Below are positions 13,092-38,745 of a DNA stretch of 64,000 nucleotides, piece by piece. Below the pieces are notes generated by a model. It made no database searches. It was not told the DNA's origin and saw only the letters and a list, made by a program, of their open reading frames with translations. The DNA comes from Prorocentrum cordatum (Eukaryota), in NCBI GenBank assembly GCA_963575745.1, contig CAUYUJ010000214.1, forward strand, positions 124,001 to 188,000, read 5' to 3'. Both the position numbers and the translations under genes were made by a program. The first letter of the stretch is position 1; every line of letters begins with the position of its first letter.

Positions 13092-13148
<57 letters not shown>

Positions 13149-13221: not shown

Positions 13222-13271
<50 letters not shown>

Positions 13272-15474: not shown

Positions 15475-15634
15475 GTCGGGCATGTCCCTCTACAGGAGGA
15501 ATAGTTTAGAAAATAGTATGGGGACGATCATATATATATATATATATCAATTTTTGAGCATGTTTGGAATATGTTTGAGATGCTTCATTTTTTATGTTTC
15601 GTCCAAGGTCCGCCTGTAGGGGGACACGCCCAAC
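15475..15634. mobile_element. Small MITE-like element (family C) with ~22-bp imperfect TIRs and AT-rich core
   Basis: GTCGGGCATGTCCCTCTACAGG ... CCTGTAGGGGGACACGCCCAAC (19/22 inverted match). Related copies at about 38553-38745 and 47079-47230. Confidence 0.65.
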
Positions 15635-24582: not shown

Positions 24583-25392
24583 TCGGCGAGAGCAGCATTT
24601 TGGAAAAAACTAGCGAAAACCCGTTTCCCGGGAATCCTGCGTGTAAAAAAACAATACGCGGGGGAGTGTCGGATATCTTCGGGACGCCATCAGGGGAAGT
24701 GGGAGAGTATTTTCATATTGTGTAATTGTGGAGGAGGGGGGAGGGGGGAGGGAGGAGGGAGGGGGGGGAGGGGGAGGAGGGGGGAGGGGCCAGGAGGGCG
24801 AGGGAGGGGGAGGGGGAGGAGGGAGGGGGAGGAGGGGGGAGAGGAGCTGGGAGGGAGGGGCGGAGGCGGGGGAGGGGAGGAGGCAGGGCGAGCAGCGGAG
24901 GAGGGGGGGGGAGGGGGATGGGGAGAGGAGGGGGAGGAAGAGGGGGGAGTAGGAGAGGAGAGAGGAGGAGGAGGAGAGGAGGAGAGGAGGAGAGGAGGAG
25001 GAGGAGGAGGAGGAGGCGGAGGGGAGGAGGAGGGGAGGAGGGGGGGAGGAGAGGCAGGAGGAGGGGCGAGGAGGGGGAGGATTGGAGGAGGAGGAGGGAG
25101 GCGAAGGAGGAGGAGGGAGGAGAGGAGGAGGAGGAGGAGGAGGAGGAGGAGGAGGAGGAGGAGGAGGAGGAGGAGGAGGGAGGGGGAGGAGAGGCAGGAA
25201 AGGGAGGAGGAGGCGAAGGAGGGGGAGGATTGTGAGGAGGAGGGGCAGTTTTACTATGCCGCTGCAGACTTTACCCGCCCACTGTCCTGGCCCCTCCTGC
25301 TGTCGCTCGTCCCTCCACGCTCCTCTCGCCCTTCCCGCTCCGCTGGGCCGCCGGCCTCTTCCCCCCTCCTCGGATGCTGTTGCCTGCTGGTG

Positions 25393-25394
<2 letters not shown>

Positions 25395-25460
<66 letters not shown>

Positions 25461-25550
25461 GCGTGCGTGCGTGCGTGCGTGCGTGTGCGTGCGTGCGTGC
25501 GTGCGTGCGTGCGTGTGCGTGTGTGCGTGTGTGCGTGCGTGTGTGCGTGC

Positions 25551-25600
<50 letters not shown>
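25395..25600 (+). repeat. (GT)n/(GCGT)n microsatellite
   Basis: Direct inspection. Confidence 0.95.
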
Positions 25601-25601
<1 letters not shown>

Positions 25602-26047
25602 GGGGGGGCCTGGTGTCCGCGTGCGGATGCTGGGCGCACGCGCCTCGCTGTGGCTGTGCGTCTGGCTCGGCACGGCGCCTGCTCCCTCTTCCCCCTCCTG
25701 GGTCGTTGCTGCTTGCTGATGGGCCGAGTGTGTGGCGGGTGTTTCTTTCGCGCCTCGTCTCCCCACGGCTCGGTGGGGAGCCAGAAAGGCACAGGCTGTG
25801 CACAAGCAGCCGCCGTACATGACCTCTGACGCCTGACCTCGCCTCTCCCCTCGCTTGCTGCAGCGACACGCCCTCAGCATTGTGCACCGGCCACTCGGCC
25901 AGCCACTCACTTGGCATCCGACCCTACGGGGGGGTCGGTATTGGGTGGAGGGTTTACGGTGGTGGTGTGGGAGGGCAGGCCGCTTCGAATTGGTTACGGC
26001 AGGCCAGCCAGGCACTGTAATGGCATCACAGGCCAGCCATTATATAT

Positions 26048-26082
<35 letters not shown>

Positions 26083-27052
26083 CAAGACTGCATTGGCGCT
26101 TCGCGCCATTCACCTTGGTCCTTAAAGTTCGGCATGCAGGCGGGATTGCAGGAAGGTCAAGCCGGCAATTTAGCGATAACTCCTTGTTGCCTTTTCCGGC
26201 ATCGTCGTTAACATAAGGTTATTCGTTATCCTTCCTCCATGCTTCTGTTTCTTCATTCTCGCCACACCCTGCGCTTTCTCCCCATCCTCCTCAGTTCTTT
26301 TTTGCGGAGGCTCCTCGGAGAGCCTCTGGGGGCCTCACAAAATTTGTCAGGCTTTCTGAAGGCCTTTTGGAGGCCTCCTGGGCATGTTCTGGGGTCCTCT
26401 GGGGGCTTTCTCGGGCCACCCTGCCTCCAACCGCGGTCTCCCTGAATGACTGGGTCACGATTTGGAATGCTTTAGAGCGTGTCTTCGGGCCATTTTGGGC
26501 CGCCATGGGGCACTCTTGGGGCCATCTTGGACCCCTGTTGTGCCGTTTTGGGGCTGTCTTGGACTGCCTGGAAGCCCTTTCGGATAGTTGTGGGGCGATT
26601 TTGGAGCCTCCCAGGCGGCTTCGGACGCCCAGAAGACCGCCGTCTTGGAGCGTCGGGAAGCCGAAAAGAGGATAACCCCAAATTGTCTCTTGGGTCCTCC
26701 TTGGGAGTGCTCTTGGAGGCCTCTTGGGACGCTTCGGAGCGATCTTTGGGGGTATGACGGCTTCCCTGGCGTCGTCGTGGACCGTATTGGGGCTCTCTGG
26801 GGTCGTTTCGGGAGCGCGCCGGAACGCCTGGAACCCGTCTCGGGCCGTCTTCGGGTGCTGGGAAGGCTTGGCGAAACGCCCTGCGAGGCCCGGGGAGCCG
26901 CTTCGAGGCTCGTCCAGAGGGTCCCAAAGCCCCAGATCCCGGGAGTCCGGTTTTGGAGGGGGGGGGGGTGATGGGTTTTCCCCCCGCCCGGGCTTTTTTA
27001 AATATATGTAAATATATAGGAAGAGGAATATATATATATAGGTACATGTATA

Positions 27053-27074
27053 TCCGTAGCCATTTTGGCTCAAG
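27053..27074 (+). other. Dinoflagellate spliced leader (DinoSL), perfect genomic copy at the 5' end of a retrocopy
   Basis: TCCGTAGCCATTTTGGCTCAAG is an exact match to the DinoSL consensus DCCGTAGCCATTTTGGCTCAAG. It is followed by a 75-nt UTR and an ATG at 27150, not by an SL-RNA intron. Confidence 0.97.
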
Positions 27075-27149
27075 CACCTTCAGCCTCGAGGACCTGCAGC
27101 ACGTTGTGCCCTCATCCGCCCCCTATTGTAGAAGCAGGCCGCCCGCGTC

Positions 27150-30100
27150 ATGGCGTTCCGCGCCGCCTCTGTGCTGCTCCTGCTGGCGTCCGGGCAGGCC
27201 GCTGTGACGCACACCAGGTTCGTGTGCGGCCAGCAGACGCAGATCTTCACCTCGACCTCCGCGGACGCCGCGGGTACCGCCGAGTTCTCGGAGATCACCA
27301 CGGAGGACGGCAAGTGCAACATGATCCAGAATGCCAATGTTGCCTCTGTCAAGTTCTGCGGCCCAGGCAAGCTGACACTTTCGCGAATGACCTGCAGCGA
27401 GCACCACGACTACAAGGCACAGATCGTCGAGCACAGCGCGAGCGGTGGAGTACGCCAACGCTTCCACGGGGCAGGCGCCGAGGGGCTGATCTCGGAGCTT
27501 GCCTACCACCTGGTGTGCTACTGGGTGGCAGTCTCCACGGGCATCCTGGCTATGGCGGGGTGGGCGATTGGGTGGATCGCCAGCCGTGCCGCCAGGTGGC
27601 GAGAAGTTGGACGGGTACAATTTTTTCGAATTCATTTCGCACTTCGAGCGGGTCGTGCTCGAGTTCGAGGCGCGCGAGGGCTTCCATCCGCACGCCATAG
27701 ACAACGACATCAGTTGGCTTCTTACTTAGTGGTGATGCGCCGTGGCGGGGGATGGCTACAGCATCATGGGTTACTTGGCAGGTACAGCGCGGGCCTTCGG
27801 CGATGCGCTCGGATGGGCGACCCGTGCGGTGCCCACGGCGAGGCAGATAAGGCCCACCACCTACCTCCACGAGCAGGGGAAGCTGTTGATACTTGTGCCG
27901 CGGGTGCCTCTACCGTCCAGCGGGCGGTGAAGGCCGTGCGGAGCTCTTGCTTTTGTCACGTCAGACGTCGCAGTCATCCCGATGTGTTTCCTGACACAAA
28001 GCGAGCCACAGAGGAAAGCGTACCCAGGCCTGCGGCGGCCCGCTGCCGTATGGCGCACTGCTGCAGCGGTGCCGGGTACGGTATCGACCCCAATTCGGCT
28101 GGCATGGACAGTGTTGGAGGGACCCCTTCAGCATCAACGAGTTCGGCACCAAGCTCGGACCAAGGTACAGGCGTTGACCCTCATCAGTCAGGAGATCATG
28201 CTTGTTTTTCGCACCATTTTGGTTGCGGGGAGTCTGACACGAAGATCGACTTCATGGACGCCTTCTGGCAGCACCCGGGTATGAGAGGGGGGGCTCCGCA
28301 AGATGTGGAGGCGTTATGTTCTGCGCTGAAGAACGTGCTGGATCAGTACGCGTCCCGCCCCACATCAGCCGCCCCAACAAGGTCACGACGGAAGTCTAAA
28401 AGGCAGGAGTCCAAGGCGAGGACCGTCGAGGAGTTGTCGTCCAAGTTAGCCAAGGCGCTAGAGGACGGCAAGAAGGGAGGATGGACAGCCGAGAAGTTGG
28501 TGACCACCATCTCTGACATCATTGGTACGACTGGAGGTACACAGCAGCAGCCGCAGCAGCTGCCGCCGCGCACAGGGCCGCGGCAGGAGCAGCGACAGCA
28601 GCACCACCAGGAAGGCAGAGGGGACAGAGGGAAGGAGGCCACCGCATCGAAGGCAAAGGGAAAGTTGCCGAGGTTAGGAGGCTATGCGAAGGGCCAGGTG
28701 CTCAGCGCTAATGGGCTGCGGCATCTGATCGACGACGGGAAGCTCGACCGGCTACAGGAGGCGATCCTTGTAGTGGCATGCGCTGATGAAGTGCAAGCAT
28801 TGCGGGATCTAGCCAGGTCGAGTGGTATCAAAAAGAGCCTGGGGGTGGTCACGCGTGAAGACCCGGCCATCGAGGGCGTCACCAACCAGAAGAAGTGGCT
28901 CAGGATAGATACCGAGTGCGGAAGGAGTGCCCCACTGGAGGAGCTCTACATCACCCCCCTGAAGGACACAGTGCCCGAGATCCCGGCGGTGGAGGTCCCG
29001 AAGGCGGCAGGCAGTGTGGCAGCAGCGCCCACGAAGGAGACGGAGACCATCAGGATCACCCTTGTGAAGCGCTACGCCTCAGATGAAACTTGGAAGGCCT
29101 CGATGATGACATCGATTCATAGCTTGTGGGACGCGTCCGGCGTGACCCGCACATATGGATTTCGAGCTCTTGAGGGAGGAGAGGAAAGATGCAGGACATG
29201 CTTCGCCACCGTCCAGGCGGGGAAGGTACCTAGCATCCTGAAGCAGTCTGGCCAGGCGGGCTTGTTCGCCGAGCGCCTGGTGTGCAACGGAGGTAGGTCG
29301 GCAGTCGAGTGGGTCACCCAGGACGCCGACGAGGACGATCGGGTCTACCTCAGCCGGGTGTTGAGGCAGGTGGGGAACGATGCCAACGGCTTAGCCTTCA
29401 GGAGAGGAGGGCAAGCACCGCTAGGCTGGAGGCTCCCGGACGGCACCGTGCCGCGCGTTCCTGATCGCGCCCTTCCCTGGGAGATCAAGGGCACGCCGGT
29501 TGATTGGAGCAGTGCCGACGTGACGGGCTTTCTTGAGCAGAACGGCTTCGCCGAGATTGCCATGATGAGACCGAGATGGGGAAAGAAAGGCTGGGTCGTC
29601 AAGGCGAAGGCTCCCTCGGGTACGAAGGAGGCCTCCGCCTACACCATCGCGGACGGCACGGTCATTCACATCGTCAGGGACATTCGGAGACAAGAAGGAA
29701 TGGTTTCGCGCCAGCTATCGGCGCGCCCTGGAGGAGTCAACAAGGACCTCCAGGAGAAGGAGCAGAAAAGGAAGGATGCGGAGAGGGCGGTGGAGCCGTG
29801 GAAGTACGCGCAGGCCCCCCCCGATGACGCCGAGGAGGACATGCCGCCGCAGACTGCCCCGGGGGCCGGGGGCGGCGCCGAAGCCGGCGCTCCCGTCCAG
29901 AGCGAGCTGGCCCAGAGGGTGGCTGCCATAGGCAGCAAAAGGGAAGCTCCAGCACAAGGAGGAAAAGAGAAGTCGAGGAGATCCTTTCCGGCCTCGGCGA
30001 TGGGCTTCAAGACTTGGGACCTCGGTGGCACGGGCGACTGCTTCTACAGGGCGGTGGCCGCGATGGCCGCAATCGAGGATGGGAGAGACAGCCAGCAGAT

Positions 30101-31874
30101 TGAAACCAGGATCAAGCAGCTGGCCGCCAAGATGAGAGCGGAGTCTACCAACTACATCCGCTCCCATGAGCTGTGGAAGGACACGTGGGTCGCCGACACG
30201 CTGTCGAACACCACGTTGGACGACGGCGCTGTACCCACCTGCTGGAAAGAGTGGGTAGACGCAACGGCCAGGGAAAATCGCTGGGTCGACGAGCACGCGG
30301 CTGCGGCACTCTCAGCCCGAGTGGGCCGTCGCATTGTGGTCTTCGTACACGACGGCGGCGGCTGGGTCAAGGGATGGGTCATTTCGCCGCCCGAGCCTAC
30401 CCAGGCGACCACCAACCAGTCGAAGCTGGCAAAGGCAAGGAAGAAAGCCTTGGAGCAGCCACCTCTACCAGTTCTTCTCATGGACTCCCACTACGTGGCG
30501 ATGCGGAAGAAGAGGCCGGAAGATGTGTGGCCCATGGAGTGGGGCGAGGCGCCGAACACGCCGTACGCCCCCAACAAGCTCAGAGGCGCCGGAAGCGACA
30601 CCGACGTCGGGAGCTGGTGCAAGGAGAGCCACAGCAGCAGCCAGCAGGGCCGCACATGTGGTGACATTTACCCGGCCGGCAGCCCGGGTCGGGAAGGCCG
30701 CAGCAGCAACAGCGGGGCCACTCAGAGCCCGCGTGCTTCGCTGTGGTACGCAACGGGAATCCGAGCCAGCCAGGACAAACCTTGGCGGCAGGCGGGCACG
30801 TCGCCGCCGGCTCCCCCGAGCAGCGCCTCAGAGGGAGGTGTCACCAGCTGGTGCAAGCAGAGCGCCTCTTCAGCTTCGGGCAGTGGCGGGGGCAGGAGGA
30901 GGCTGCGAGGAAAGCAAGCGGGCTCGTGGAGGACGAGCCGCCCCATGCCATCGATCCAGGAGGAGGCCGCCAGGGACAGTGACCTGCGCGACATCTCCCC
31001 GACGCAGCCCTTCGTACCTCGGGGGCCGCCTCAGGATCGCGGGGAGGAAGAGGAGGAGGAGGGGCGGGTCTTCGGCCCCGCCACCAGGTTCGAACATGCA
31101 GAGGAAAAGCGGCGGCTGCGGAACAGCAGGCGGCGCGGGACTGCGGCGCTACCACCGCAGCTGGGCTTCCGTCAGCCGAAGGCTACCAGTTGGAGGTGCC
31201 CTGTCGCAGGGTGCTCGTTCGTGGCCACTGGAATATTCGAACATGGCCAAGAGGCACGGCATTACCCAGGAGGGTTTGCGCCACGCAGGAGGGAGGCGGG
31301 GGAGTGGAACTACGACCTGATGATGAGGCAGAAGGCCCGCCACCGCAAGCGTGAGCACCCAGACGTTGACAGGAGGGTGTTCACCACAATGAGGGATCGG
31401 CCAGCGATACTGGTCCCGAAGACGGAGGAGGAGATCAGGCAGCAGCTGGGGCTGGGCGCAGGTGCCGAGATCCCGCTGAGCCTGAAGTCGCACCGCTGCT
31501 CGCGGTGCCAGAAATGGTTTCCCGAGTTCGAGTCGCGGCCGCAGTGCGCCATCAGCATCACGGCTCACAACGAAGCCGAGCATGCAGCAGCGCGGCTGGA
31601 GCTGGGGGCTAAATTCAAGACGACTCGGAGGAAACAGAAGGATCTGGACCTGCAGCGGGCCGCCACGGGCGTCGTCTGCGAGCCAGCCACGGGCCAGGCC
31701 AAGAAACAGTACGCTGCGAGGATGTACGCTGCCCTGCCGCCCGACGCAAAGAAGAGGAGGGTCGAGAGGGCGGCGGAGCTGCAGAGGCACAGGAAAAGCA
31801 GGGCACAGCAAAGTGCCGCCGACGGACACGATGGAGCGCCCGACGCTGAGGCGGGGCGCTCGGGTCTGGAGTGA
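27150..31874 (+). CDS. Chimeric ORF1 (1574 aa): 98 host-derived aa fused in frame to LINE ORF1 with RRM-like region, OTU-like cysteine protease and two C2H2-like Zn fingers
   Basis: Long non-repetitive ORF. OTU-like motifs are WDLGGTGDCFYRAVA (Cys codon 30039), WVDE..AAALS and DSHY (His codon 30489). Zn-finger-like motifs are CPVAGC...HRKREH (31197-31358) and CSRC...HNEAEH (31497-31583). A tentative RRM-like segment WEIKGTPVDWSSADVTGFLEQNGF starts at about 29478. Confidence 0.85.
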   Translation: MAFRAASVLLLLASGQAAVTHTRFVCGQQTQIFTSTSADAAGTAEFSEITTEDGKCNMIQNANVASVKFCGPGKLTLSRMTCSEHHDYKAQIVEHSASGGVRQRFHGAGAEGLISELAYHLVCYWVAVSTGILAMAGWAIGWIASRAARWREVGRVQFFRIHFALRAGRARVRGARGLPSARHRQRHQLASYLVVMRRGGGWLQHHGLLGRYSAGLRRCARMGDPCGAHGEADKAHHLPPRAGEAVDTCAAGASTVQRAVKAVRSSCFCHVRRRSHPDVFPDTKRATEESVPRPAAARCRMAHCCSGAGYGIDPNSAGMDSVGGTPSASTSSAPSSDQGTGVDPHQSGDHACFSHHFGCGESDTKIDFMDAFWQHPGMRGGAPQDVEALCSALKNVLDQYASRPTSAAPTRSRRKSKRQESKARTVEELSSKLAKALEDGKKGGWTAEKLVTTISDIIGTTGGTQQQPQQLPPRTGPRQEQRQQHHQEGRGDRGKEATASKAKGKLPRLGGYAKGQVLSANGLRHLIDDGKLDRLQEAILVVACADEVQALRDLARSSGIKKSLGVVTREDPAIEGVTNQKKWLRIDTECGRSAPLEELYITPLKDTVPEIPAVEVPKAAGSVAAAPTKETETIRITLVKRYASDETWKASMMTSIHSLWDASGVTRTYGFRALEGGEERCRTCFATVQAGKVPSILKQSGQAGLFAERLVCNGGRSAVEWVTQDADEDDRVYLSRVLRQVGNDANGLAFRRGGQAPLGWRLPDGTVPRVPDRALPWEIKGTPVDWSSADVTGFLEQNGFAEIAMMRPRWGKKGWVVKAKAPSGTKEASAYTIADGTVIHIVRDIRRQEGMVSRQLSARPGGVNKDLQEKEQKRKDAERAVEPWKYAQAPPDDAEEDMPPQTAPGAGGGAEAGAPVQSELAQRVAAIGSKREAPAQGGKEKSRRSFPASAMGFKTWDLGGTGDCFYRAVAAMAAIEDGRDSQQIETRIKQLAAKMRAESTNYIRSHELWKDTWVADTLSNTTLDDGAVPTCWKEWVDATARENRWVDEHAAAALSARVGRRIVVFVHDGGGWVKGWVISPPEPTQATTNQSKLAKARKKALEQPPLPVLLMDSHYVAMRKKRPEDVWPMEWGEAPNTPYAPNKLRGAGSDTDVGSWCKESHSSSQQGRTCGDIYPAGSPGREGRSSNSGATQSPRASLWYATGIRASQDKPWRQAGTSPPAPPSSASEGGVTSWCKQSASSASGSGGGRRRLRGKQAGSWRTSRPMPSIQEEAARDSDLRDISPTQPFVPRGPPQDRGEEEEEEGRVFGPATRFEHAEEKRRLRNSRRRGTAALPPQLGFRQPKATSWRCPVAGCSFVATGIFEHGQEARHYPGGFAPRRREAGEWNYDLMMRQKARHRKREHPDVDRRVFTTMRDRPAILVPKTEEEIRQQLGLGAGAEIPLSLKSHRCSRCQKWFPEFESRPQCAISITAHNEAEHAAARLELGAKFKTTRRKQKDLDLQRAATGVVCEPATGQAKKQYAARMYAALPPDAKKRRVERAAELQRHRKSRAQQSAADGHDGAPDAEAGRSGLE
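27430..27444 (+). repeat. Left target-site duplication (15 bp)
   Basis: AGCACAGCGCGAGCG, identical to 35676-35690. Confidence 0.95.
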
Positions 31875-34800
31875 CGCCAGGCCGCCGACGGGCCCCCCTC
31901 CCGGCCCCTGCTGCCGCCTGCCCGTTTCAGAGAGGCAACGGCAAGCGGAGGGGGGAAGGGTCCGGCGCCGGCGCCTCCTGGCGCGACCCGCTCCTTGCGA
32001 GGAGGTGGAGGAGGAGGAATGGCAGCAGGGCAGCTCCTCAGCTGCTGGAGTTGCAACGTGCGTACGTTCGGGGCTGCCTGGGTCGCTGCCGATGCCGCCC
32101 TCAGCGAGCAGCAGGACGTGATCATGCTTCAGGAGACGTCCCACACCAGGGATGAGTTCATCCGATACCAGAACTCGTTCTCGAGGCGGGGATTTGCAGT
32201 TTACCAGGCGCCAGCCTGTGCCAGGAAGGACGGGCGACCAGTCGGCGGCGTGCTGGCCCTGGTGTCCAAGCGCCACAGGCAGCGCTTCCTCTGGAAGAGG
32301 GCGGGGCCCGGGGGGCAGGTGCTCGCGGTCGAGGTCGCGGGCCAGGTCCTCGCCAACACCTATGTCCACCCCGACGGCCACGCGCAGGGGATCATCGACG
32401 GGATTGACCACGATTTCTGCGTGGACAACACGACCAGGTGGGTCGCCTGTGGCGACTGGAACGAGGTCCCAGGGAAGCTCACCGCACCACCCTTCGTTGA
32501 GCAGAAGGGCGTCAGCTCCGCGGCCGGCGAGTGGACGCCCACCAGATACAAGGATCCATCGGGGAGGCAGCCGAGGCCGATCGACTACGCCTTCGTCTTC
32601 AATTCCGAGGTGGACTCCTTCGATTTCGCCAACTACCAGCTATCCGACCACAAGGTCATCTGCTTCAGCTTGCGGGCCCCCCCGGGAGGCATCGCCACGG
32701 AGGTCCGGCTGAGGCCGCACGTGCAGTACGGCAGGCCGCCCGGGGTCCCACAGGACACCTGGGTGGAGGTCACCCGCCGCCTGTGGGAGGACAGGCAGCA
32801 CGACCAGAGGAACTGCCCACACGAGCCGGGCTCCAGGAGCGCGCAGCAGTGGGTGAACACCGAGTGGAAGAGCTTCACCGCCGCCCTGGCGGAGACGCTG
32901 GACGAGGCCGCGGCCCATCTTGCCACCCCCAGCGGCGAGCGCAGGGGCGAGGAGGAGGAAGAGGTCGACGTGGCCGACGGGGCGTGGAGGGCTGCCGACT
33001 ACACTGGCGCCCCGCTCTCCTCGGAACGCGTGCCGTCCAGGCGCACTGTGGAGCGCCGCCGGCCCCGGAGGCAGGAGGTGCCCAAGGGCGACGTGAGCAC
33101 GCACGAGGTTCAATGGTCGAAGCTGCAGGCGACGGCCGCTGGAAGCTTCAGACAGAGAAGGTGCGCCAACACTTTGGGACGGTTGCGGAGGCTTCTGTGG
33201 CTCGAGAGCCACGGCCAGGGCCGCTCAGACGAGGCGCGCGAGCTGCGAATCAGGTGCGACCGGGCCGATGCCACCCTCGGCCTGGGGAGCGCCGCGGAGG
33301 AACAGCAGCTGCTGGACAGGACCAGGCAGCTGGAGGCGAAGATTCTCCTCTTCGAGCACAAGATGCGTCAGCTGCAGGAGGACGACCGCCAGGAGCGGAT
33401 AGAACAGTGGAAGACATCCATGAAGGAGGATCGGCGGGCCCACCAGTGGCTCCGAGGCGTGATGCCCACGGACCCCGCCGTGTCCGACGAGCAGGGAAAC
33501 GTCTCCAGGTCCAAGTCCGAGGCCCTGGAGTTCTTGAAGCAGCGCTGGCGGCGGGTCTGGGATCGCCCCAAACCCGACCCGGCCCGCTGGCAGGATTATC
33601 TGGCCGCTCACCTGCCCTCCCGCGCCGACGACGAGGCCGTCTGGCGGCCGCTGGACGAGGGCGAGGTCAGGACAGCCATGGAAAGGCTGAGGGGCTCCTC
33701 CGCGGGGCCCGACGGCTGGCTCGGGGCCGAGCTCTGCGACGCCCTCTGCGCCCTTGGTGCCATCACCTTCCTCCTCAACCAGTTCGAGACCCTCGGGCTG
33801 GTGCCAGACGAGTGGAAGGCCATGAGACAGGTACACATCCCCAAGGACGACACCGACGAAGGGCCCGTGAGCACAGCCTCGCTGCGGCCCATCTCCGTGA
33901 CATCGTCCTGGTACAGGCTCTGGGCGTCGGCGCGCTTCCGCTCGCACGACTGCTCCGAGTGGATTGACACGTGGTGGGACGATGCCATGCTGGGAGCCCG
34001 GAAGGCCGCGGAGGCCCACGAGGGCATAGCATGGGCAGTGGGGGCTGCTGCCGCGGGCAAGTACCTCACCAGCTGGGACTTTTCTCTGGCGTTCGACCAC
34101 ACCGACCCAGAGATTGCGGCCAAGGCTTTCGACACGCTCGGAATGCCGTCGAACGTGAACAACATGCTGTCCGAGATGTGGTGCCACCAGCTCCGCTGGC
34201 TACAACTTGGACAAGCTGTACACCCCGAGCCACAGCGCGTGGCCAGCAGCTTGCCTCAGGGGGACCCCTTCTCCCCTCTCGGCCTGTCGGCCGTGCTGCT
34301 GGCGCCGCTGCTCAGGCTCCGGCACACCTGCCCCGGCGTGGACTGCAGGCTCTACGTCGATGACAGGACCTGGGCGGCGGACACCGCCGCCGACTTGAAG
34401 GCAGGAGGCGATGTCTGGTGCGACGCCTCGGACGTCTTCGGATTCGTGGAGAACGAGGGTAAAAAGCAGTGGCTGCACAAGACGCCACACGGGAGGAAGA
34501 GGCTCGAGGAGGATGGGATCGATGGCACCTGCATCGTCGACTCCGCGACGGTCCTCGGGGCGAAGATCACAGGAGGAGTGAGGAGGAAGGCTTCGAGGAA
34601 GGAGAGGAGGAAGCTGGAGGAAGCGAAGCGTCAGCTCAGGAGAGCGGCCAAGCTCCCGACGGCCCCGCGGGACAGGCTGAGGGTCGCTGCAGCCGGGCCT
34701 TTGGCCAAGGGGTGTTGGGGATGGGTCGAGGGCCCGCCCAACCAGCTTGACACTCGGCAGGCCGATGCGGCCGTGGCACGGGTCGCCAGGGCCCCCAAAG

Positions 34801-35675
34801 CTGCTTTGGTTCCACTTCGGCGGCTGTTGCTGGGACACCGAGCAGATCTCAGGTACAGAGCGTCGCACGACGCCGTGGTCGCATGCGCCCGCGTGGAGCG
34901 CAAGGATCGAGGACGGGGCAGCATCACAGACGTGCCCTGGACACAGCAGGGAACAAAGGGCCTCCCGGCCGCGTTCGACCGCCACTTGTCCTGGACGGGG
35001 TGGAGGAGGACGCCGGAGGCCTGGACCTGGGAGCACGCAGAGCTCCCGGAGGCCGTCTTCTCGCTGAGACGGGGCTCACCCCACTGGAAGGAGCCGCGGT
35101 GGCTGGGACACCTCCTCCGGGAGGCCTGGCGCTGGAGGCTGCACAAGGACGCCATCGACTCGGCGAGGCACGAGGCGGTGCAGGTGCGGGGCTGGGGCGC
35201 AGGCGGCTACGATCCAGTGAGGATCAAGGCCGTCCAGGACCTCGCCCAGACGAAGGGCAACAAGGCGATGCGAGTCCTCTCGGGGGCCATCGTGTCGCCT
35301 CTGTGTGTGACGCGCGCCGACGGCCTGCCCGACGGGCAGTGCCCCTGGTGCCGGGCGTCACTCGGCAGCCACGACCACCTCGCGTGGCAGTGCGACGGGC
35401 TCGCACAGGAGCGTCCGGCCGGGGCGCTGCCCGCCGACGCCATGCAGAGGAGGTTCTTCTGGACCACTGGCAGGAAAGAGCGCTCCGCCGTAGACGCCAA
35501 GATCTTCGAGTGGGGCCTCAGGCTTGATGATATCCTCATCAACTGGAGGTACTCGTCCGACGGCTTCCTGGAGCAGTTCGGGCGACCCCAGGAGGTAGCC
35601 TAGCCCGCGGGGTTCCCGTGCGGGCCAGACGCTGCTCGGTCATCCAGACGGCTGGCCAGCGAGATCAAGCTTTTC
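27445..35675 (+). mobile_element. Non-LTR retrotransposon (APE-type LINE), 8231 bp, coding capacity apparently intact, possibly 5'-truncated
   Basis: Bounded by a perfect 15-bp TSD AGCACAGCGCGAGCG (27430-27444 and 35676-35690). Encodes an APE endonuclease, RT and CCHC finger, plus a long upstream ORF. Confidence 0.95.
31995..35603 (+). CDS. LINE ORF2: APE endonuclease + reverse transcriptase + C-terminal CCHC Zn finger (first ATG at 32019)
   Basis: APE motifs: SCNV, DVIMLQET, NTYVHP, GDWN, IDYAF, SDH (32643-32651). RT motifs: AGPDG, LRPISV, WDFSLAFD, LPQGDPFSP (34251), YVDD (34353-34364). CCHC motif: CPWC-x7-HLAWQC (35340-35393). No internal stops. Confidence 0.96.
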   Translation: MRGGGGGGMAAGQLLSCWSCNVRTFGAAWVAADAALSEQQDVIMLQETSHTRDEFIRYQNSFSRRGFAVYQAPACARKDGRPVGGVLALVSKRHRQRFLWKRAGPGGQVLAVEVAGQVLANTYVHPDGHAQGIIDGIDHDFCVDNTTRWVACGDWNEVPGKLTAPPFVEQKGVSSAAGEWTPTRYKDPSGRQPRPIDYAFVFNSEVDSFDFANYQLSDHKVICFSLRAPPGGIATEVRLRPHVQYGRPPGVPQDTWVEVTRRLWEDRQHDQRNCPHEPGSRSAQQWVNTEWKSFTAALAETLDEAAAHLATPSGERRGEEEEEVDVADGAWRAADYTGAPLSSERVPSRRTVERRRPRRQEVPKGDVSTHEVQWSKLQATAAGSFRQRRCANTLGRLRRLLWLESHGQGRSDEARELRIRCDRADATLGLGSAAEEQQLLDRTRQLEAKILLFEHKMRQLQEDDRQERIEQWKTSMKEDRRAHQWLRGVMPTDPAVSDEQGNVSRSKSEALEFLKQRWRRVWDRPKPDPARWQDYLAAHLPSRADDEAVWRPLDEGEVRTAMERLRGSSAGPDGWLGAELCDALCALGAITFLLNQFETLGLVPDEWKAMRQVHIPKDDTDEGPVSTASLRPISVTSSWYRLWASARFRSHDCSEWIDTWWDDAMLGARKAAEAHEGIAWAVGAAAAGKYLTSWDFSLAFDHTDPEIAAKAFDTLGMPSNVNNMLSEMWCHQLRWLQLGQAVHPEPQRVASSLPQGDPFSPLGLSAVLLAPLLRLRHTCPGVDCRLYVDDRTWAADTAADLKAGGDVWCDASDVFGFVENEGKKQWLHKTPHGRKRLEEDGIDGTCIVDSATVLGAKITGGVRRKASRKERRKLEEAKRQLRRAAKLPTAPRDRLRVAAAGPLAKGCWGWVEGPPNQLDTRQADAAVARVARAPKAALVPLRRLLLGHRADLRYRASHDAVVACARVERKDRGRGSITDVPWTQQGTKGLPAAFDRHLSWTGWRRTPEAWTWEHAELPEAVFSLRRGSPHWKEPRWLGHLLREAWRWRLHKDAIDSARHEAVQVRGWGAGGYDPVRIKAVQDLAQTKGNKAMRVLSGAIVSPLCVTRADGLPDGQCPWCRASLGSHDHLAWQCDGLAQERPAGALPADAMQRRFFWTTGRKERSAVDAKIFEWGLRLDDILINWRYSSDGFLEQFGRPQEVA

Positions 35676-35690
35676 AGCACAGCGCGAGCG
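35676..35690 (+). repeat. Right target-site duplication (15 bp)
   Basis: AGCACAGCGCGAGCG, identical to 27430-27444. The host reading frame resumes immediately after it. Confidence 0.95.
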
Positions 35691-37597
35691 ACTACACAAC
35701 CAATTGCGAGGTCATCAGCACGGCGGGCACCGTCGTCGACGGCTGGCTCGGCAGCTTCACGCTGAGCTGCTGAGCTCGGGCCGCGCGGCACACCTCCCTG
35801 AGCATGGTCGCCTCCGAAAGTCACCAAAAAAATGTACATGTGTGTGTATATATATGTATATGAGCTAGCCTCAGCAATTTCAGGCATCCAGCCTCAGCCG
35901 CTCTTACAATTTGGCCTCCTCTCAGACTGACCTCACCCAGATGCGCTCGACACAGGCTACATGAGGCTAGCCAGTCCCGACCAGTCCAGCCTGCCCGACC
36001 CTAGCAGATACTGCCCAGCCGTTAAACTATACCTTAGTTCTTACTGTGTGCTCTGATTTTGTCATGGGAGTAGGGAGTAGGCTTATAGAGCATACCCCCC
36101 CGTGAACTATTTCCCACAGCAGCATTAACACCTATATTGACACACTCAGTTACGCACCGTCTCAGTCGCCGCTTGCTCTGCGAATCTCACTCGGCCACGC
36201 ATCGTGCCTGTCCATTTTGCTCTGCAAGCCTCACACGTTTATTGTGTACGTGCATATCGTATCCTACTCAATCCTCCTTCTCATCAGGTTGTTGGTATGG
36301 TGTATATGCTTGGTATTATCTTCCGACTTGGTACTGCCGCGGACTGAGTTACCCTCGTTTTGTCGGGCCATTGCTACCTGCTTTACTCTGTGTCTGACCT
36401 TCGCCGCACCCCTCTGCGGTATACTTTGTCCGCTCACTTTTATACACTGCGACAAGCGAGTCTTCATGTCTGGTCAACGTCGAGAGACAACGGGAAATGG
36501 GAGCATGAGGCGGCGGGAGGATCATTGAGGGCTTTCTTTTTTCTTCCCTGCCCCGTCGACCGCCGAGCGGGACGGGGTTCCAAGGCCCCGCCAGCACCAG
36601 CAGGAAACAAGTCCTCGAGCTTCGAGGCAAAGGAGAGGGAGAAGAGGAGGGGAAGAAGGAGGAGAAGGAGGTGGAGGAGGAGGAGGAGGAGGAGGAGGAG
36701 GAGGAGGAGGAGGAGGACGGGTCGATGGAGGCGGCGTTGTAGGAGGAGGGAGGAGGAGAGAGGAGGAGGAGGAGGAGGAGGAGGAGGAGGAGGAGGGAGA
36801 AGGAGGAGGAGGAGGAGGAGGAGGAGGAGGAGGCGGAGCAGGAGGACGAGGAGGAGGAGGAGGAGGAGGAGGAGGAGGAGAGGAGGAGGAGGAGGAGAGG
36901 AGGAGGAGGAGGAGGGAGGAGGAGGAGGAGGGAGGAGGAGGAGGAGGAGGAGGAGGAGGAGGAGGAGGAGGATGAGGAGGAGGAGGAGGGAGGAGGAGAG
37001 GAGGAGGAGGAGGAGGAGGAGGAGGAGGAGGAGGAGGGAAGGAGGACAGCCGGGGGAGGAGGAGGAGGAGGACTGGTGGTCGGAGAGGAGAGCGGGGAAT
37101 GGAGGATGGGGGAGGGTGCGAGCCGAAGGTGATGGGGCGGCACGAGGGGCAGGGGTCCCCGACGCCGTGACTTTTTCGTATTCTGCGTAGCCCCTTGGAT
37201 GTCTGAACCCCTGCCCTGGGATCGCTTTCTCGTCCCGAGCCGTCGTTAGGGGGCCCGGGCAGTGATTTTCACAAACGCGAGCGGATCTAGGTGCAGGGGC
37301 ACAAACACCTGTGCCCCAGACCTCTGCCGGGACGGGTGCTGGCCAGCACTCCCTGGGTAGAGCACCGCCGCGGCGACGAAACACGAGGGCCACGAGGGAG
37401 AAAAGCCCACCAGGGCCGAACACGCCAGGAAGATAACTCGATCCTCGATCCTTGACCCTCAGACCTCGATCCTTGAGCGGGCCGCTGCGCGCCGTACTTT
37501 GATTTGCGAACCTCGAGCCCCGAACCCCGAACCCCGAGCCTCAAGCCCCGCCCCTCAAGCCCCGATCCTCAAGCCTCGAGCTTGCAGCCTCGGCTTA

Positions 37598-37772
<175 letters not shown>

Positions 37773-38552
37773 CGGCGGCGGCATGCGTGGAGGCCTGGCC
37801 GCTGAAGCCTGGCGCGCGGGAGGACGCCGACGCCGCCGCGGGCGCGGGCGGGGAGCCCTCCGCGGCCGCTGCGGAGCCGGGCGGCTGCGCAGGCCCGGGC
37901 GGCGGCGGCGGCGGCCCTCGACGGCGGCCTGCGGAGGCCCCATCGGAGGCCTTCGGAGGGTCCCTCCGAGGGCCCTCGGCGTCCAGAGGTTCGGAGCCCC
38001 CCTCGTGCTCCAATCCTCGAGCTTCAGCGGCGGCGGCGGCGGCGGCCGCGGCCGCGGCGGCGGCGGCCGCGGCGGCGGCGGTGACGACGACGGCGACGGC
38101 GACGGCGTTGGCGACGATGCTGGCGGCAACGACGGCGGCGCACGACCTGCACGGCGCGCCCCCCGGGGGAAGCGCGGAGGGGGGGCAGGTCCTTCTCGGG
38201 GAGCTGGGCTGCTCAGGACCCCCCCCTTCCGCGATCTCGGCGGAGGCCCGCGAGCAGGAACCTCTGGGCCCAGCGCGTGGCTCCGCGGGTTCTGGCGCCC
38301 ACCACGCCTCGGCGTGGCACTCTCGTCCAGCGCTGCCGCGCTCGAGCGTCGGCTCCCCCGAGCGTTCCCGGGCCTCCTGCCCCGTGGAGCGGAGGGGCAC
38401 GCTGTCGGCAGGCAGGGCACGGCGTACGGCGTGTCGCAGGGGCCGCCGCCGCGGCGCGCGGCGCAGAGGCGCCCGACCGCAGGGCGCTTCCTCAGGATGC
38501 GGGGGGCCGCCCGAGCCGTCTGGGCAGGCCCGCCCGCTCTGCCTCCCCTCAA

Positions 38553-38745
38553 GTCTGGCATGCCCCTCTACAGGAGGAGCAGTAGAGAACATAACAAATC
38601 GAATGGGGACGATGTTTCTACCAATTTAGAATGTTTCCGAGATCTTGCTTACAGTATGATTCTGCTCATGCTTCTGATTATGGTTTTGATTATTATTGGT
38701 GATGATTATTCGTCCAAAATCCGCCTGCAGGAGGACACGCCCTAA
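38553..38745. mobile_element. MITE-like family C copy
   Basis: GTCTGGCATGCCCCTCTACAGG...CCTGCAGGAGGACACGCCC; internal ATGGGGACGAT shared with the 15475 copy. Confidence 0.55.

What the first reader, a model, noticed from the sequence alone, without database searches (positions are those of the whole stretch)
27445..35675. LINE that looks like a self-processing polyprotein: OTU-like protease plus ubiquitin-tail-like RG(G/A) sites at domain boundaries
Seen: ORF1 contains an OTU-like domain (GTGDCFYRAVA...WVDE...ALS...DSHY; Cys 30039, His 30489). Three motifs resembling the ubiquitin C-terminus LRGG fall at domain junctions: MRGG (28281-28292) before the ORF1 core, LRGA-G (30579-30593) just after the OTU domain, and LRGG (31995-32006) just before the APE endonuclease. 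Known: OTU proteases are deubiquitinases that cut after LRGG, and some RNA-virus papain-like proteases use the same specificity for polyprotein processing; typical LINEs carry no protease, with NeSL (Ulp1-type) an exception. Inference: the element cuts its own polyprotein into leader | RNA-binding+OTU | Zn-finger | EN-RT, and might also deubiquitinate host substrates. This would be a virus-like expression strategy in a non-LTR element.
Basis: partly seen in the sequence, partly recalled or inferred. Interest (0 to 1): 0.92.

Follow-up and report, generated by a model that had tools for sequence, protein, structure and literature searches.

The report
Dinoflagellate LINE encoding an OTU protease
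A jumping gene in a dinoflagellate genome carries its own ubiquitin-type cutting enzyme, bracketed by conserved motifs that look like the tail of ubiquitin, so it probably cuts its own protein into pieces as some RNA viruses do, a strategy I found described in no paper for this class of element.

Summary
Window 27445-35675 is an intact APE+RT LINE with an exact 15-bp target-site duplication, inserted in an exon of a very highly covered dinoflagellate retrogene.

ORF1 contains a genuine OTU-fold cysteine protease. The AF2 model has pLDDT 92.9, the best structural match is OTUD1 at Z 13.3, and all 50 listed matches are OTU enzymes. Cys964 and His1114 align to the catalytic residues.

The ORF1 architecture (RRM-like core plus OTU) recurs in dozens of distant homologues, six of them with an RT downstream.

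- Before the core, hydrophobic-x-G-[GA] occurs in 18 of 20 homologues that reach that far.
- About 30 residues after the catalytic His, RG[GA] occurs in 47 of 99 homologues, against 1-4 of 75-99 in control windows.

That is the pattern of LxGG cleavage sites used by the OTU-fold proteases of arteriviruses and tymoviruses. Self-processing of ORF1p is therefore the best reading (about 0.55), but it is unproven.

The third site is not supported. It lies behind the ORF1 TGA stop in a spacer that does not look coding, and relatives have an NPGP (2A-like) motif there instead.

My seven literature searches found no paper describing an OTU in a LINE.

The parts
27054..27074 (+). Relic dinoflagellate spliced-leader sequence upstream of the host gene. 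It marks the host gene copy as a retrogene and the genome as dinoflagellate. It is context, not part of the LINE.
   Evidence: Exact match to CCGTAGCCATTTTGGCTCAAG; 0 of 100 shuffles give a match. The motif was typed from recall.
27150..27444 (+). Host exon with a signal-peptide-like start. The LINE insertion interrupts it, and it is in frame with the LINE by chance.
   Evidence: GC3 0.86/0.75. Contig depth of 5,000-23,000 in X1-X3, against about 10 over the LINE. No Pfam family.
27430..27444 (+). 5' copy of the target-site duplication, AGCACAGCGCGAGCG.
   Evidence: The loose end at 27444 continues as the sequence behind the 3' copy (table 7).
27445..35675 (+). The LINE (8231 bp): leader, ORF1, TGA, spacer, ORF2, 72-nt 3' UTR, no poly(A).
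27447..28280 (+). Leader: 278 codons open in the ORF1 frame. Coding status is uncertain and no homologue was found.
   Evidence: Frame 0 has no stop; the other two frames have 4 and 8 stops. GC3 is 0.82 in the first 150 nt, then 0.34-0.66. Only a self hit. Best BLASTP to the P0003 leader has E 0.79.
28281..28292 (+). Site 1: M-R-G-G (aa 378-381), directly before the conserved N-terminal helix APQDVEALCSALKNVL.
28293..29966 (+). ORF1 core: conserved helix, basic Q-rich linker, then a folded part. The folded part holds two RRM-like beta-alpha-beta-beta-alpha-beta domains, at aa 630-715 (29037-29294) and aa 769-850 (29454-29699).
   Evidence: Found in 42 of the 149 stored proteins with any segment hit, self included. 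AF2 pLDDT 78.5. Foldseek gives tandem-RRM proteins at E 2.5e-3 to 2e-2. VIA-align gives RRM domains at Z 6-7. This is middling evidence.
29391..29426 (+). Conserved internal LAFRRGGQAPLG inside the folded core. It is a structural RGG and not a junction.
   Evidence: Third RG[GA] peak at -350..-326 from His, 14 hits at 9.0 per 1000 aa. It lies in a strand of the core model.
29967..30521 (+). OTU-fold cysteine protease domain (aa 940-1124). Cys964 codon is 30039-30041 and His1114 codon is 30489-30491.
30579..30593 (+). Site 2: L-R-G-A-G (aa 1144-1148), 30 residues after the catalytic His and about 20 residues past the end of the OTU fold, where the model's confidence falls off.
30594..31871 (+). 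C-terminal part of ORF1. It holds Ser-rich 'SW[CL]K' repeats (30606-30641, 30840-30878), RRRLRGKQ (30894-30917) and two Cys2-His2-like fingers (31191-31262, 31491-31583).
   Evidence: No Pfam family. Similar only to P0002 among the stored proteins.
31872..31874 (+). ORF1 stop codon TGA, followed by C.
   Evidence: A 6808-nt contig of run X1 is identical to the window over 28898-35705.
31875..32018 (+). Inter-ORF spacer in the same frame as ORF1 and ORF2. It contains the third motif, LRGG (31995-32006), within a GGAGG-rich run. It is probably untranslated.
32019..35603 (+). ORF2 (1194 aa). APE lies at about 32088-32651 and RT at about 33837-34478, with YVDD at 34353. A C-terminal CPWC...H..H....C motif is at 35340-35393.
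35676..35690 (+). 3' copy of the target-site duplication.
35676..35773 (+). Rest of the host exon, up to its TGA stop (35771-35773).
   Evidence: depth 986-4096 in X1-X3.

Best explanation
Window 27445-35675 is an intact, apparently young APE-type LINE of a family that is common in dinoflagellate-like sequence.

Its ORF1 product is a multi-domain protein. In order, it has a fast-evolving leader, the motif [LM]RGG, a short conserved helix with a basic stretch, two RRM-like domains, an OTU-fold cysteine protease, the motif [LF]RG[GA]-G-K-S, Ser-rich repeats and two zinc fingers.

I propose that the OTU domain cuts its own polyprotein after the two ubiquitin-tail-like motifs. It would cut in cis about 20 residues behind its own fold, as tymovirus PRO and arterivirus PLP2 cut next to themselves. 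It would also cut at the N-terminal boundary of the core. This would release an RNA-binding/protease module from the leader and from the zinc-finger part.

EN-RT (ORF2) is made separately, behind a TGA stop, and is not released by the protease. The same specificity would let the enzyme remove ubiquitin or a ubiquitin-like modifier from host or element proteins.

Shown: the element and its limits, the OTU fold with Cys and His, the family-wide architecture, and the positional conservation of the two motifs.

Inferred: that the motifs are cleavage sites, that the OTU is the enzyme that cuts them, and any deubiquitinase role.
For: 1. LINE identity. APE and RT score above Pfam's cut-offs. YVDD is present. 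The TSD is an exact 15 bp. Contigs read across the empty site.

2. OTU.
- PF02338 scores E 0.012 on the sub-region, and 16 of 45 aligned homologues match PF02338 at E <= 0.01, best 8.7e-7.
- A family profile hits viral OTU domains in the PDB (7jms_A at E 7.8e-4, 7y5m, 11ny), with GDC and H aligned.
- The AF2 model has pLDDT 92.9 and pTM 0.89.
- All 12 Foldseek matches at E <= 1e-3 are OTU enzymes.
- VIA-align gives OTUD1 Z 13.3 (rmsd 2.8 A over 137 residues), OTUD3 13.1 and DUBA 13.1. All 50 listed rows are OTU, and 127 of 595 chains score Z >= 8.

3. Family.
- 254 proteins match the OTU at E <= 1e-3, and 58 at E <= 1e-10.
- Among the 149 stored proteins with any segment hit, 42 also have the core and 6 have the RT downstream.
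- The metagenome locus L006 has everything in one 3076-codon ORF.
- Cys is aligned in 138 of 151 sequences and His in 114 of 151.

4. Site 2.
- RG[GA] lies 20-55 residues after the His in 47 of 99 homologues that extend that far, and the stricter [LM]RG[GA] in 17 of 99.
- Four control windows in the same proteins give 1-4 of 75-99 for RG[GA] and 0-1 for [LM]RG[GA].
- The rate is 19.0 per 1000 aa in the +25..+49 bin, against 1.86 overall.
- The consensus over 66 sites is P4 L25/F11, P3 R48, P1 G41/A25, P1' G42/A10, P2' K24/R9, P3' S24.

5. Site 1.
- Of the 20 homologues with at least 870 residues upstream of the His, 18 have hydrophobic-x-G-[GA], 15 have RG[GA] and 12 have [LM]RG[GA] in the expected stretch. 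The typical form is LRGGAGGSATT.RKR, followed by the conserved helix.
- [LM]RG[GA] peaks only at these two positions along the proteins.
- At least six leaders carry a second LRGG 35-75 residues further upstream.

6. The window's own motifs fall in the peak bins, at -736 and +30 from the His.

7. Site 2 lies where the model changes from ordered to disordered. Mean pLDDT is 96 for residues 191-200, 72 for 201-210 and 39 after that. The OTU fold itself ends at about residue 185 of the model.

8. Precedent. [quoted passage not shown]
Against: - No cleavage product or activity has been observed.
- The window's own OTU scores below Pfam's gathering cut-off (16.6 against 23.3 bits). I could not identify a third catalytic residue: position His+2 is Val and varies among homologues.
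- Only about half to two thirds of homologues show site 2. The count is 47 of 99 for the strict motif and 62 of 92 for the broad one. Some have R-A-G or R-A-A there, which is unusual for P2 of a ubiquitin-type site.
- A third conserved RGG (AFRRGG) sits inside the folded core and is clearly structural. Conservation of an RGG alone therefore does not prove a cleavage site.
- OTU domains that do not process their own protein are known. The CCHFV L protein is one (PMC3968130 passages). The OTU domains of Helitron and Ginger1 transposon proteins are others (PMC2836005 passages).
- In this copy the leader has no homologue and loses its GC3 coding signal between 27630 and 28350. Met378 of MRGG could simply be the start codon, which would make site 1 vestigial here.
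- The P3 residues of sites 1 and 2 did not co-vary significantly in an automated test (table 12/2/4/4, Fisher p 0.14).
- Most homologues are automatic gene models of unnamed origin.
Confidence: 0.55

Rival explanations
1. The OTU works only as a deubiquitinase (or a remover of a ubiquitin-like modifier). It would protect the LINE ribonucleoprotein or change host factors, and ORF1p would stay in one piece. The conserved RG[GA] motifs would be linker, nucleic-acid-binding (RGG-type) or localisation elements.
For: The nairovirus OTU does not take part in processing (PMC3968130 passages). OTU domains ride on Helitron and Ginger1 transposon proteins, where no polyprotein is known (PMC2836005 passages). 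The Helentron locus L030 shows the same arrangement. The internal AFRRGG shows that a structural RGG is conserved in this very protein. Site 1 is followed by a basic RKR stretch that could be a nuclear signal.
Against: [LM]RG[GA] is enriched only at the two module boundaries, with a hydrophobic P4 and a small P1'. Extra LRGG copies occur in otherwise unconserved leaders. Site 2 lies at the edge between order and disorder.
Confidence: 0.3
2. TGA read-through gives an ORF1-ORF2 fusion, and the OTU also cuts at LRGG (31995-32006) to free EN-RT.
For: ORF1 and ORF2 are in the same frame with one TGA between them, followed by C. LRGG lies 4 codons (GGGG) before the first ATG of ORF2. Some relatives are single-ORF polyproteins (L006).
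Against: The spacer's GC by codon position is 0.81/0.83/0.67, whereas the ORFs show GC3 of 0.75-0.96. All three frames of the spacer are open. No unusual RNA structure follows the stop (z -0.14, 79 of 200 shuffles fold as well). Of 5 relatives whose sequence before the APE can be read (L005, L006, L019, P0034, P0038), none has [LM]RG[GA] there. Two have a GG, but it belongs to a longer conserved motif ending in [NH]PGP. That motif recurs in 5 of the 6 NPGP places, in 4 stored proteins. P0002 ends like a separate ORF1.
Confidence: 0.07
3. The motifs are cut or used by host enzymes, for example host deubiquitinases, or the exposed LRGG tails serve for conjugation. The element's OTU would have another task.
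For: The motifs copy the ubiquitin C-terminus.
Against: No ubiquitin-like fold precedes them. The roughly 70-residue stretches between paired LRGG sites look disordered and show no ubiquitin similarity. Host deubiquitinases normally need the ubiquitin body (established knowledge, not tested here).
Confidence: 0.05
4. The motifs arise by chance in a G+C-rich, Gly/Arg/Ala-rich frame, and the protease is a dead passenger.
For: The window is 60-68% G+C here. The third motif is best explained this way.
Against: Position-specific enrichment is about tenfold over the background of the same proteins. Cys and His are kept in 105 of 151 aligned sequences, and many of the rest are truncated. The ORFs are intact and the TSD is exact.
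Confidence: 0.03

Closest known systems
OTU-fold polyprotein proteases of positive-strand RNA viruses (arterivirus nsp2 PLP2; tymovirus PRO)
   Same: An OTU-fold Cys/His protease sits inside a multi-domain replicative protein, with ubiquitin-tail-like motifs at module borders, one of them just behind the protease. The viral enzymes cut in cis and in trans and double as deubiquitinases (PMC3968130 passages). The arterivirus PLP2 chain 4ium appears among the weak profile hits (E 0.4).
   Different: Here the carrier is a non-LTR retrotransposon ORF1 and not an RNA-virus replicase. The polymerase (RT) is in a separate ORF. The structurally closest solved domains are cellular OTUD1/3/5 and nairovirus OTUs, not PLP2 or PRO. 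Cleavage is not shown.
[quoted passage not shown]
   Same: These are non-LTR retrotransposons that carry a cysteine protease of the ubiquitin/SUMO-tail-cutting kind (PMC4640811 passages).
   Different: They carry Ulp1 and not OTU. They have a restriction-like endonuclease and a single ORF. This element has an APE endonuclease, and its protease lies in ORF1 behind RRM-like domains.
OTU domains of DNA transposons (animal Helitrons/Helentrons, Ginger1)
   Same: An OTU domain is carried by a mobile element's own protein (PMC2836005 passages). One such Helentron turned up in my scan (L030).
   Different: Those are a different class of element. No bracketing LRGG sites have been described for them, and I did not test them for this.
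APE-type non-LTR retrotransposons with 2A-like sequences before the APE
   Same: Relatives of this element (L005, L006, P0039, P0062, P0075, P0143) carry [NH]PGP motifs directly before the APE, in some cases within single ORFs. That is the place where 2A-like sequences are reported (PMC3708506 passages).
   Different: The window's element has no [NH]PGP at all and uses a stop codon instead. The relatives' motif, R-[VIL]-G-E-A-x-N-P-G-P, departs from the published GD[V/I]ExNPGP, and its activity is untested.
Nairovirus vOTU and cellular OTUD1/OTUD3/OTUD5 deubiquitinases
   Same: They give the best sequence-profile and fold matches, and they share the GxC[FL][FY]R and H[YF] motifs.
   Different: They are stand-alone or N-terminal deubiquitinases with no self-processing role. 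Sequence identity is only 14-20%.

Membership tests
OTU cysteine proteases (Pfam PF02338) | OTU fold | tested here: met
   AF2 pLDDT 92.9. All 12 Foldseek matches at E <= 1e-3 are OTU. VIA-align gives Z 13.3/13.1/13.1 to OTUD1/OTUD3/DUBA, and all 50 rows are OTU.
OTU cysteine proteases (Pfam PF02338) | Catalytic Cys at the start of a helix in a G-x-C-[FL]-[FY]-R-type motif, and catalytic His in a C-terminal strand (H-[YF]) | tested here: met
   GTGDCFYRA aligns to ADGNCFYHS of 7jms, and HY aligns to the His of 7jms. Cys is kept in 138 of 151 and His in 114 of 151 aligned family members.
OTU cysteine proteases (Pfam PF02338) | Third catalytic residue (Asp/Asn/Glu near the His) | tested here: inconclusive
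   His+2 is Val and varies among homologues. Asp1112 at His-2 is frequent but not universal. TYMV PRO also lacks a third residue (PMC3968130 passage).
OTU cysteine proteases (Pfam PF02338) | Score above Pfam's gathering cut-off | tested here: not met
   16.6 bits against 23.3, E 0.012. 16 of 45 homologues match at E <= 0.01. Sequence-model membership is therefore marginal, while fold membership is clear.
OTU cysteine proteases (Pfam PF02338) | Isopeptidase or peptidase activity after a Gly-Gly tail | not testable with these tools
   This needs Ub-AMC or Ub-probe assays and cleavage assays.
APE-type non-LTR retrotransposon (LINE) | APE endonuclease followed by RT in one ORF | tested here: met
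   PF03372 at 37.8 bits (cut-off 24.5) and PF00078 at 30.7 bits (cut-off 29.6). YVDD is present. The RT matches R2 proteins in the PDB at E 5.7e-5.
APE-type non-LTR retrotransposon (LINE) | Target-site duplication flanking the insertion | tested here: met
   15 of 15 bp identical. Contigs show the empty site.
APE-type non-LTR retrotransposon (LINE) | 3' poly(A) or simple-repeat tail | tested here: not met
   The element ends ...GATCAAGCTTTTC directly at the TSD. Many LINE clades lack a poly(A) tail (established knowledge), so this does not exclude membership. The clade was not determined.
APE-type non-LTR retrotransposon (LINE) | ORF1 with a nucleic-acid-binding domain | tested here: inconclusive
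   Two RRM-like domains at Z 6-7 and Foldseek E 2.5e-3. The tool's own note says that Z under 8 may reflect only a common arrangement.
Self-processing OTU/papain-like polyprotein (arterivirus PLP2 / tymovirus PRO type) | Conserved L-x-G-[GAS]-type motifs at the borders of modules, one next to the protease | tested here: met
   Site 1 in 18 of 20 and site 2 in 47-62 of 92-99 homologues, against 1-8 of 75-99 in control windows.
Self-processing OTU/papain-like polyprotein (arterivirus PLP2 / tymovirus PRO type) | Protease-dependent cleavage at those motifs | not testable with these tools
   No experiment was possible.
NeSL-type protease-bearing non-LTR retrotransposons | Ulp1-like protease and restriction-like endonuclease | tested here: not met
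   The protease is OTU and the endonuclease is APE. Features of NeSL and Utopia come from PMC4640811 passages.
2A-bearing non-LTR retrotransposons | NPGP motif in front of the APE | tested here: not met
   No [NH]PGP occurs anywhere in the element's frame. It is present in relatives.

The most novel reading that the evidence does not exclude
A whole family of dinoflagellate LINEs expresses ORF1 as a virus-like polyprotein. An in-built OTU protease would cut it at conserved LRGG-type sites into a leader, an RNA-binding/protease module and a zinc-finger module. In some members there are up to three such sites. The same enzyme would strip ubiquitin-like marks from the element's particle or from host restriction factors. 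That would be the first protease-matured non-LTR retrotransposon. It would also be a possible evolutionary bridge to the OTU-type proteases of RNA viruses.
Probability: 0.5. Interest if true: 0.85.

Novelty: new variant of a known kind. Interest (0 to 1): 0.72.

Why it matters
LINEs are thought to make their proteins as finished units. Proteolytic maturation is a hallmark of retroviruses, LTR elements and RNA viruses.

A LINE family with its own ubiquitin-tail-specific protease and conserved cut sites would add a new expression strategy to non-LTR retrotransposons. It would give a concrete function to the OTU and Ulp1 domains that keep turning up on mobile elements. It would also point to a link between retrotransposition and the ubiquitin system in dinoflagellates, whose genomes are shaped by retroposition.

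The claim can be tested directly with one construct and one point mutant. The family seems abundant, with 254 cluster representatives at E <= 1e-3. The finding would therefore also improve annotation of dinoflagellate genomes, where these ORFs are now 'unnamed protein products'.

Tried and rejected
- **Docking.** Complex prediction was run with the OTU domain against the 66-residue stretch around MRGG. The verdict was 'no answer' (score 0.02, mark 0.34). This is not evidence either way.
- **RNA structure behind the TGA stop.** z -0.14, so nothing special.
- **Third site as a conserved junction.** Rejected, as set out under the rival readings.
- **Leader homology.**
  - phmmer found only the self hit.
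  - BLASTP against P0003 gave E 0.79 for a GCGE..DF.D patch.
  - tblastn with 32 homologue leaders against 27446-28400 gave a best E of 0.008, with no consistent hit.
  - I dropped the idea of a conserved leader domain.
- **Membrane-anchor idea for leaders.** 11 of 33 leaders have a hydrophobic 19-residue window, at 1.62 per 1000 aa against 0.08 in the rest of the proteins. The window's own leader has none at the threshold, so this stays a side note.
- **Co-variation of P3 between sites 1 and 2.**
  - The automated table gave p 0.14.
  - The site picker mis-chose site 1 in at least P0001, P0003 and P0125.
  - Matched pairs such as P0042 H/H, P0133 D/E, P0106 T/S and L006 D/S are anecdotes only.
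- **Motif loss in OTU-dead members.** 0 of 7 against 62 of 92. The 7 include two unrelated repeat proteins and several misaligned or truncated models, so I give this little weight.
- **Searches that gave only the window's own protein.** The search for homologous proteins with the OTU ('longer') and with ORF2.
- **The search for related loci.** A degenerate DNA pattern of the Cys motif then gave loci L001-L120. Only 48 of the 120 showed an OTU or LINE hit, and one of those is an animal Helentron.
- No genome is held. Cluster names were unavailable. The Atlas was unavailable. As a result the organisms behind most homologues are unknown, and only two carry a name (Prorocentrum cordatum).
- **Laid contigs.**
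  - The flanks 25500-26700 and 35926-37500 have no cover in the runs.
  - X1-X3 are of unknown kind, so I do not claim that the LINE is transcribed.
  - X1 may be the sample the window came from.
- **Earlier findings of this scan.** Nothing on this element or kind.

Full report
**What is at the coordinates**

On the + strand a 1574-codon ORF runs from 27150 to 31874. It is followed, in the same frame after a single TGA, by an open frame running to 35603.

The second part carries an APE endonuclease (PF03372, E 2.2e-9, 37.8 bits against a cut-off of 24.5). It also carries a reverse transcriptase (PF00078, E 3.3e-7, 30.7 bits against 29.6). YVDD and a C-terminal Cys/His motif are present.

The limits 27445 and 35675 are the true ends of an insertion. 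The 15-mer AGCACAGCGCGAGCG stands at 27430-27444 and again at 35676-35690. Contigs of public runs that cover the flanking exon at very high depth stop matching exactly at 27444 and at 35676. From there they continue with the sequence of the other side (table 7).

So this is a LINE of 8231 bp with an exact target-site duplication. It is inserted, in the sense direction and by chance in frame, into an exon of a host gene. An exact relic spliced leader lies 76 bp upstream of the start codon of that gene copy (27054-27074). The genome is therefore dinoflagellate and the host gene copy is itself a retrogene.

The first 295 nt of the 'ORF1' found by the ORF finder (27150-27444) are host exon and not LINE.

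**The OTU domain is real**

The whole ORF1 gives no Pfam hit at E <= 1. The 217-residue sub-region gives PF02338 (OTU) at E 0.012, 16.6 bits, below the gathering cut-off of 23.3. A single-sequence search of the PDB gives only the Hazara virus OTU at E 0.051.

Family-level evidence is much stronger:
- An exhaustive phmmer search found 254 cluster representatives at E <= 1e-3 and 58 at E <= 1e-10.
- 16 of 45 aligned members match PF02338 on their own, best E 8.7e-7.
- The family profile hits viral OTU domains in the PDB, with the GDC and His motifs aligned (7jms_A at E 7.8e-4).

An AlphaFold2 model built on that alignment is confident (pLDDT 92.9, pTM 0.89). All 12 Foldseek matches at E <= 1e-3 are OTU enzymes. 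VIA-align gives Z 13.3 to OTUD1 (rmsd 2.8 A over 137 residues) and Z 13.1 to OTUD3 and to DUBA. All 50 listed rows are OTU proteins.

Cys964 and His1114 are in the catalytic positions. Across 151 aligned sequences the Cys column holds Cys in 138 and the His column holds His in 114, and many of the rest are truncated.

I could not identify a third catalytic residue. TYMV PRO lacks one too (PMC3968130, passage read).

**The architecture is a family trait**

I searched 151 stored proteins with segments of the window's ORFs, and 149 had at least one hit. Of these, 42 (self included) also carry the ORF1 core in front of the OTU. Six have the RT downstream and three have the APE. Only P0002 shares the zinc-finger part, and none shares the leader.

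The only two homologues that carry a name come from Prorocentrum cordatum.

A scan of metagenome contigs with a degenerate Cys-motif pattern returned 120 loci, of which 48 had an OTU or LINE hit. One of them, L006, has everything in a single 3076-codon ORF. In order it holds a hydrophobic leader, the core, the OTU, Ser-rich repeats, two zinc fingers, an NPGP motif, the APE and the RT.

The folded part of the core models at pLDDT 78.5. It contains two beta-alpha-beta-beta-alpha-beta domains that match RRM domains only moderately (Foldseek E 2.5e-3 to 2e-2; VIA-align Z 6-7). An RNA-binding role is therefore likely but not established.

**Are the RG[GA] motifs more than chance?**

Within the element there are 3 matches to [LM]RG[GA], against 0.45 expected (P = 0.01).

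The decisive test is positional conservation. I anchored all homologues on the catalytic His and plotted where the motifs fall.
- [LM]RG[GA] has exactly two peaks. One is at +25..+49 (17 hits). The other is a broader one at -850..-701 (24 hits). Elsewhere the count is near zero.
- RG[GA] reaches 19.0 per 1000 residues in the +25..+49 bin, against 1.86 overall.

Counted per protein, of the 99 homologues with at least 50 residues after the His:
- 47 have RG[GA] at +20..+55.
- 17 have [LM]RG[GA] there.
- Four control windows in the same proteins give 1-4 of 75-99 for RG[GA] and 0-1 for [LM]RG[GA].

The 66 sites found with the broad pattern, the window's own among them, give a consensus of [LF]-R-G-[GA]-G-[KR]-S.

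Of the 20 homologues with at least 870 residues upstream of the His, 18 have hydrophobic-x-G-[GA] in the expected stretch, 15 have RG[GA] and 12 have [LM]RG[GA]. The typical form is LRGGAGGSATT.RKR, followed by the helix that in the window reads APQDVEALCSALKNVL.

At least six leaders carry a second LRGG 35-75 residues further upstream, in sequence that is otherwise unconserved.

The window's own motifs lie at -736 and +30 from the His, inside the peak bins.

Site 2 lies about 20 residues past the end of the OTU fold, where the model's confidence falls from 96 to 72 to 39.

**What speaks against reading them as cleavage sites**

- A third RG[GA] peak at -350..-326 (14 hits) corresponds to AFRRGG, inside a strand of the folded core. 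A conserved RGG can therefore be structural.
- Between a third and a half of homologues lack site 2, depending on the pattern used, and some have R-A-G or R-A-A.
- The co-variation test between the P3 residues of the two sites was not significant (p 0.14), and the automatic site picker made errors.
- The absence of the motif in 7 members without an aligned Cys or His (0 of 7 against 62 of 92) is confounded by misalignment and by two unrelated proteins.
- The docking job gave no answer.
- OTU domains that do not process their own protein exist. Examples are the CCHFV L protein (PMC3968130 passages) and the OTU domains of Helitron and Ginger1 proteins (PMC2836005 passages).

**The leader in this copy**

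From the 5' junction to MRGG the ORF1 frame is open for 278 codons, while the other two frames have 4 and 8 stops. That argues for coding sequence, possibly 5'-truncated.

However, the GC3 signal that marks the ORFs (0.74-0.96) is present only in the first 150 nt of the LINE. It is absent between about 27630 and 28350. No homologue of the leader was found.

Met378 of MRGG could therefore be the start codon in this copy. In that case site 1 is only the footprint of the family's site.

**The third site**

LRGG at 31995-32006 lies after the ORF1 stop (TGA followed by C) and 4 codons (GGGG) before the first ATG of ORF2, which opens directly into the first APE strand.

A 6808-nt contig of run X1 is identical to the window across 28898-35705, so the stop is probably not an assembly error. 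X1 may, however, be the source sample.

Several results argue against translation of the spacer:
- Its GC by codon position is 0.81/0.83/0.67, the opposite of the coding pattern.
- All three of its frames are open.
- The RNA behind the stop folds no better than shuffles.

In the 5 relatives where the sequence before the APE can be read, none has [LM]RG[GA]. L005 and L006 have a GG, but it belongs to a longer conserved motif, G-G-x-R-G-x-R-[LV]-G-E-A-x-[NH]-P-G-P. That motif recurs in P0039, P0062 and P0075, and P0143 has a more canonical IEPNPGP.

This is the position where 2A-like sequences are reported in single-ORF APE-type non-LTR elements (PMC3708506 passages). The family thus separates ORF1 functions from EN-RT by a stop codon or by a 2A-like motif, not by an OTU site.

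I rate the full read-through-plus-cleavage version at about 0.07.

**Mechanism I commit to (confidence about 0.55)**

ORF1p is a polyprotein. Its OTU domain cuts after the ubiquitin-tail-like motif about 20 residues behind its own fold, in cis. It also cuts after the equivalent motif, or motifs, in front of the core. This frees an RRM-OTU module from the leader and from the Ser-rich/zinc-finger part.

ORF2p is made separately. The same P4-P1 preference implies deubiquitinase-type activity, which may protect the particle or act on host factors.

The main rival (0.3) is a deubiquitinase-only role, with the motifs serving as linker or localisation elements.

**Comparison with what is known, and novelty**

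The closest working analogues are the OTU-fold proteases of arteriviruses and tymoviruses (PMC3968130). The closest retrotransposon precedent is the Ulp1-like protease of NeSL and Utopia-1_TSP (PMC4640811 passages). That is a different protease on a different type of element. OTU domains are known on Helitrons and Ginger1 DNA transposons (PMC2836005).

Seven full-text searches looked for OTU, ovarian tumor or deubiquitinase together with non-LTR, LINE, ORF1 or dinoflagellate terms. None of the papers listed for them has a title or abstract that describes an OTU in a non-LTR retrotransposon or LRGG-type sites in one. I opened only PMC2836005, PMC5203782, PMC3968130, PMC3708506 and PMC4640811, and only by passages. 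I read no supplements. Subscription-journal papers and Repbase reports are outside the library, so prior description elsewhere cannot be excluded.

I classify it as a new variant of a known kind: a LINE with an added, probably self-processing, OTU protease. Interest is 0.72.

Noticed in passing
window 27054-27444 and 35676-35773: The LINE sits inside an exon of a small host gene of about 130 codons with a signal-peptide-like start. The gene matches no Pfam family and is preceded by an exact relic spliced leader. Its contig depth is 5,000-23,000 in three runs of one species label and 516 in a marine poly(A) metatranscriptome, against about 10 for the LINE. Other, uninterrupted copies must exist elsewhere in the genome.
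   Followed up: partly
window 32021 and 27056 (table 5c): Run X2 has a contig (depth 23) that joins position 32021, the last base of the ORF2 start codon, to position 27056, inside the relic spliced leader, with one extra T between them. It could be a chimeric retrocopy made by template switching, a trans-spliced ORF2 message read on the other strand, or an assembly artefact. I could not tell which.
   Followed up: no
L006:547-9774 (- strand); L005:3466-4977 (- strand); proteins P0039, P0062, P0075, P0143: A conserved motif, G-x-R-[VIL]-G-E-A-x-[NH]-P-G-P, lies directly in front of the APE domain in relatives, in L006 within a single 3076-codon ORF. It looks like a divergent 2A 'ribosome-skipping' peptide. 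Its activity is untested.
   Followed up: partly
L030:221-7687 (- strand): An AT-rich, animal-type Helentron ORF of 2489 codons. It has a canonical 2A (GDVEKNPGP) directly before an OTU domain, then Rep/helicase and a C-terminal endonuclease-like part. Here OTU and 2A sit side by side on a DNA transposon.
   Followed up: no
window 30606-30641 and 30840-30878; many homologues: Behind site 2 the family carries repeats of K-S-x-x-S-W-[LC]-[PK]-x-S-S in a Ser-rich stretch, which read SWCKESHSSS and SWCKQSASSAS in the window. The function is unknown. They could be phosphorylation or interaction motifs.
   Followed up: no
leaders of homologues; L006 ORF residues 340-520: Hydrophobic, membrane-span-like windows are about 20 times more frequent in the leaders (11 of 33 leaders, 1.62 per 1000 aa) than in the rest of the proteins (0.08 per 1000 aa). 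L006 has four of them.
   Followed up: partly
window 25254-26015 and 36349-38629: Long simple-repeat tracts flank the locus. They are (AC)n-like and purine-rich trinucleotide runs, and they give spurious ORFs rich in poly-Ser, poly-Arg or Thr/His dipeptide repeats on both strands.
   Followed up: no
window 30894-30917: RRRLRGKQ is conserved between the window and P0003 (GKRRRLRGKQ), in the otherwise poorly conserved region after the OTU. It is an LRG-K motif with no second Gly.
   Followed up: no
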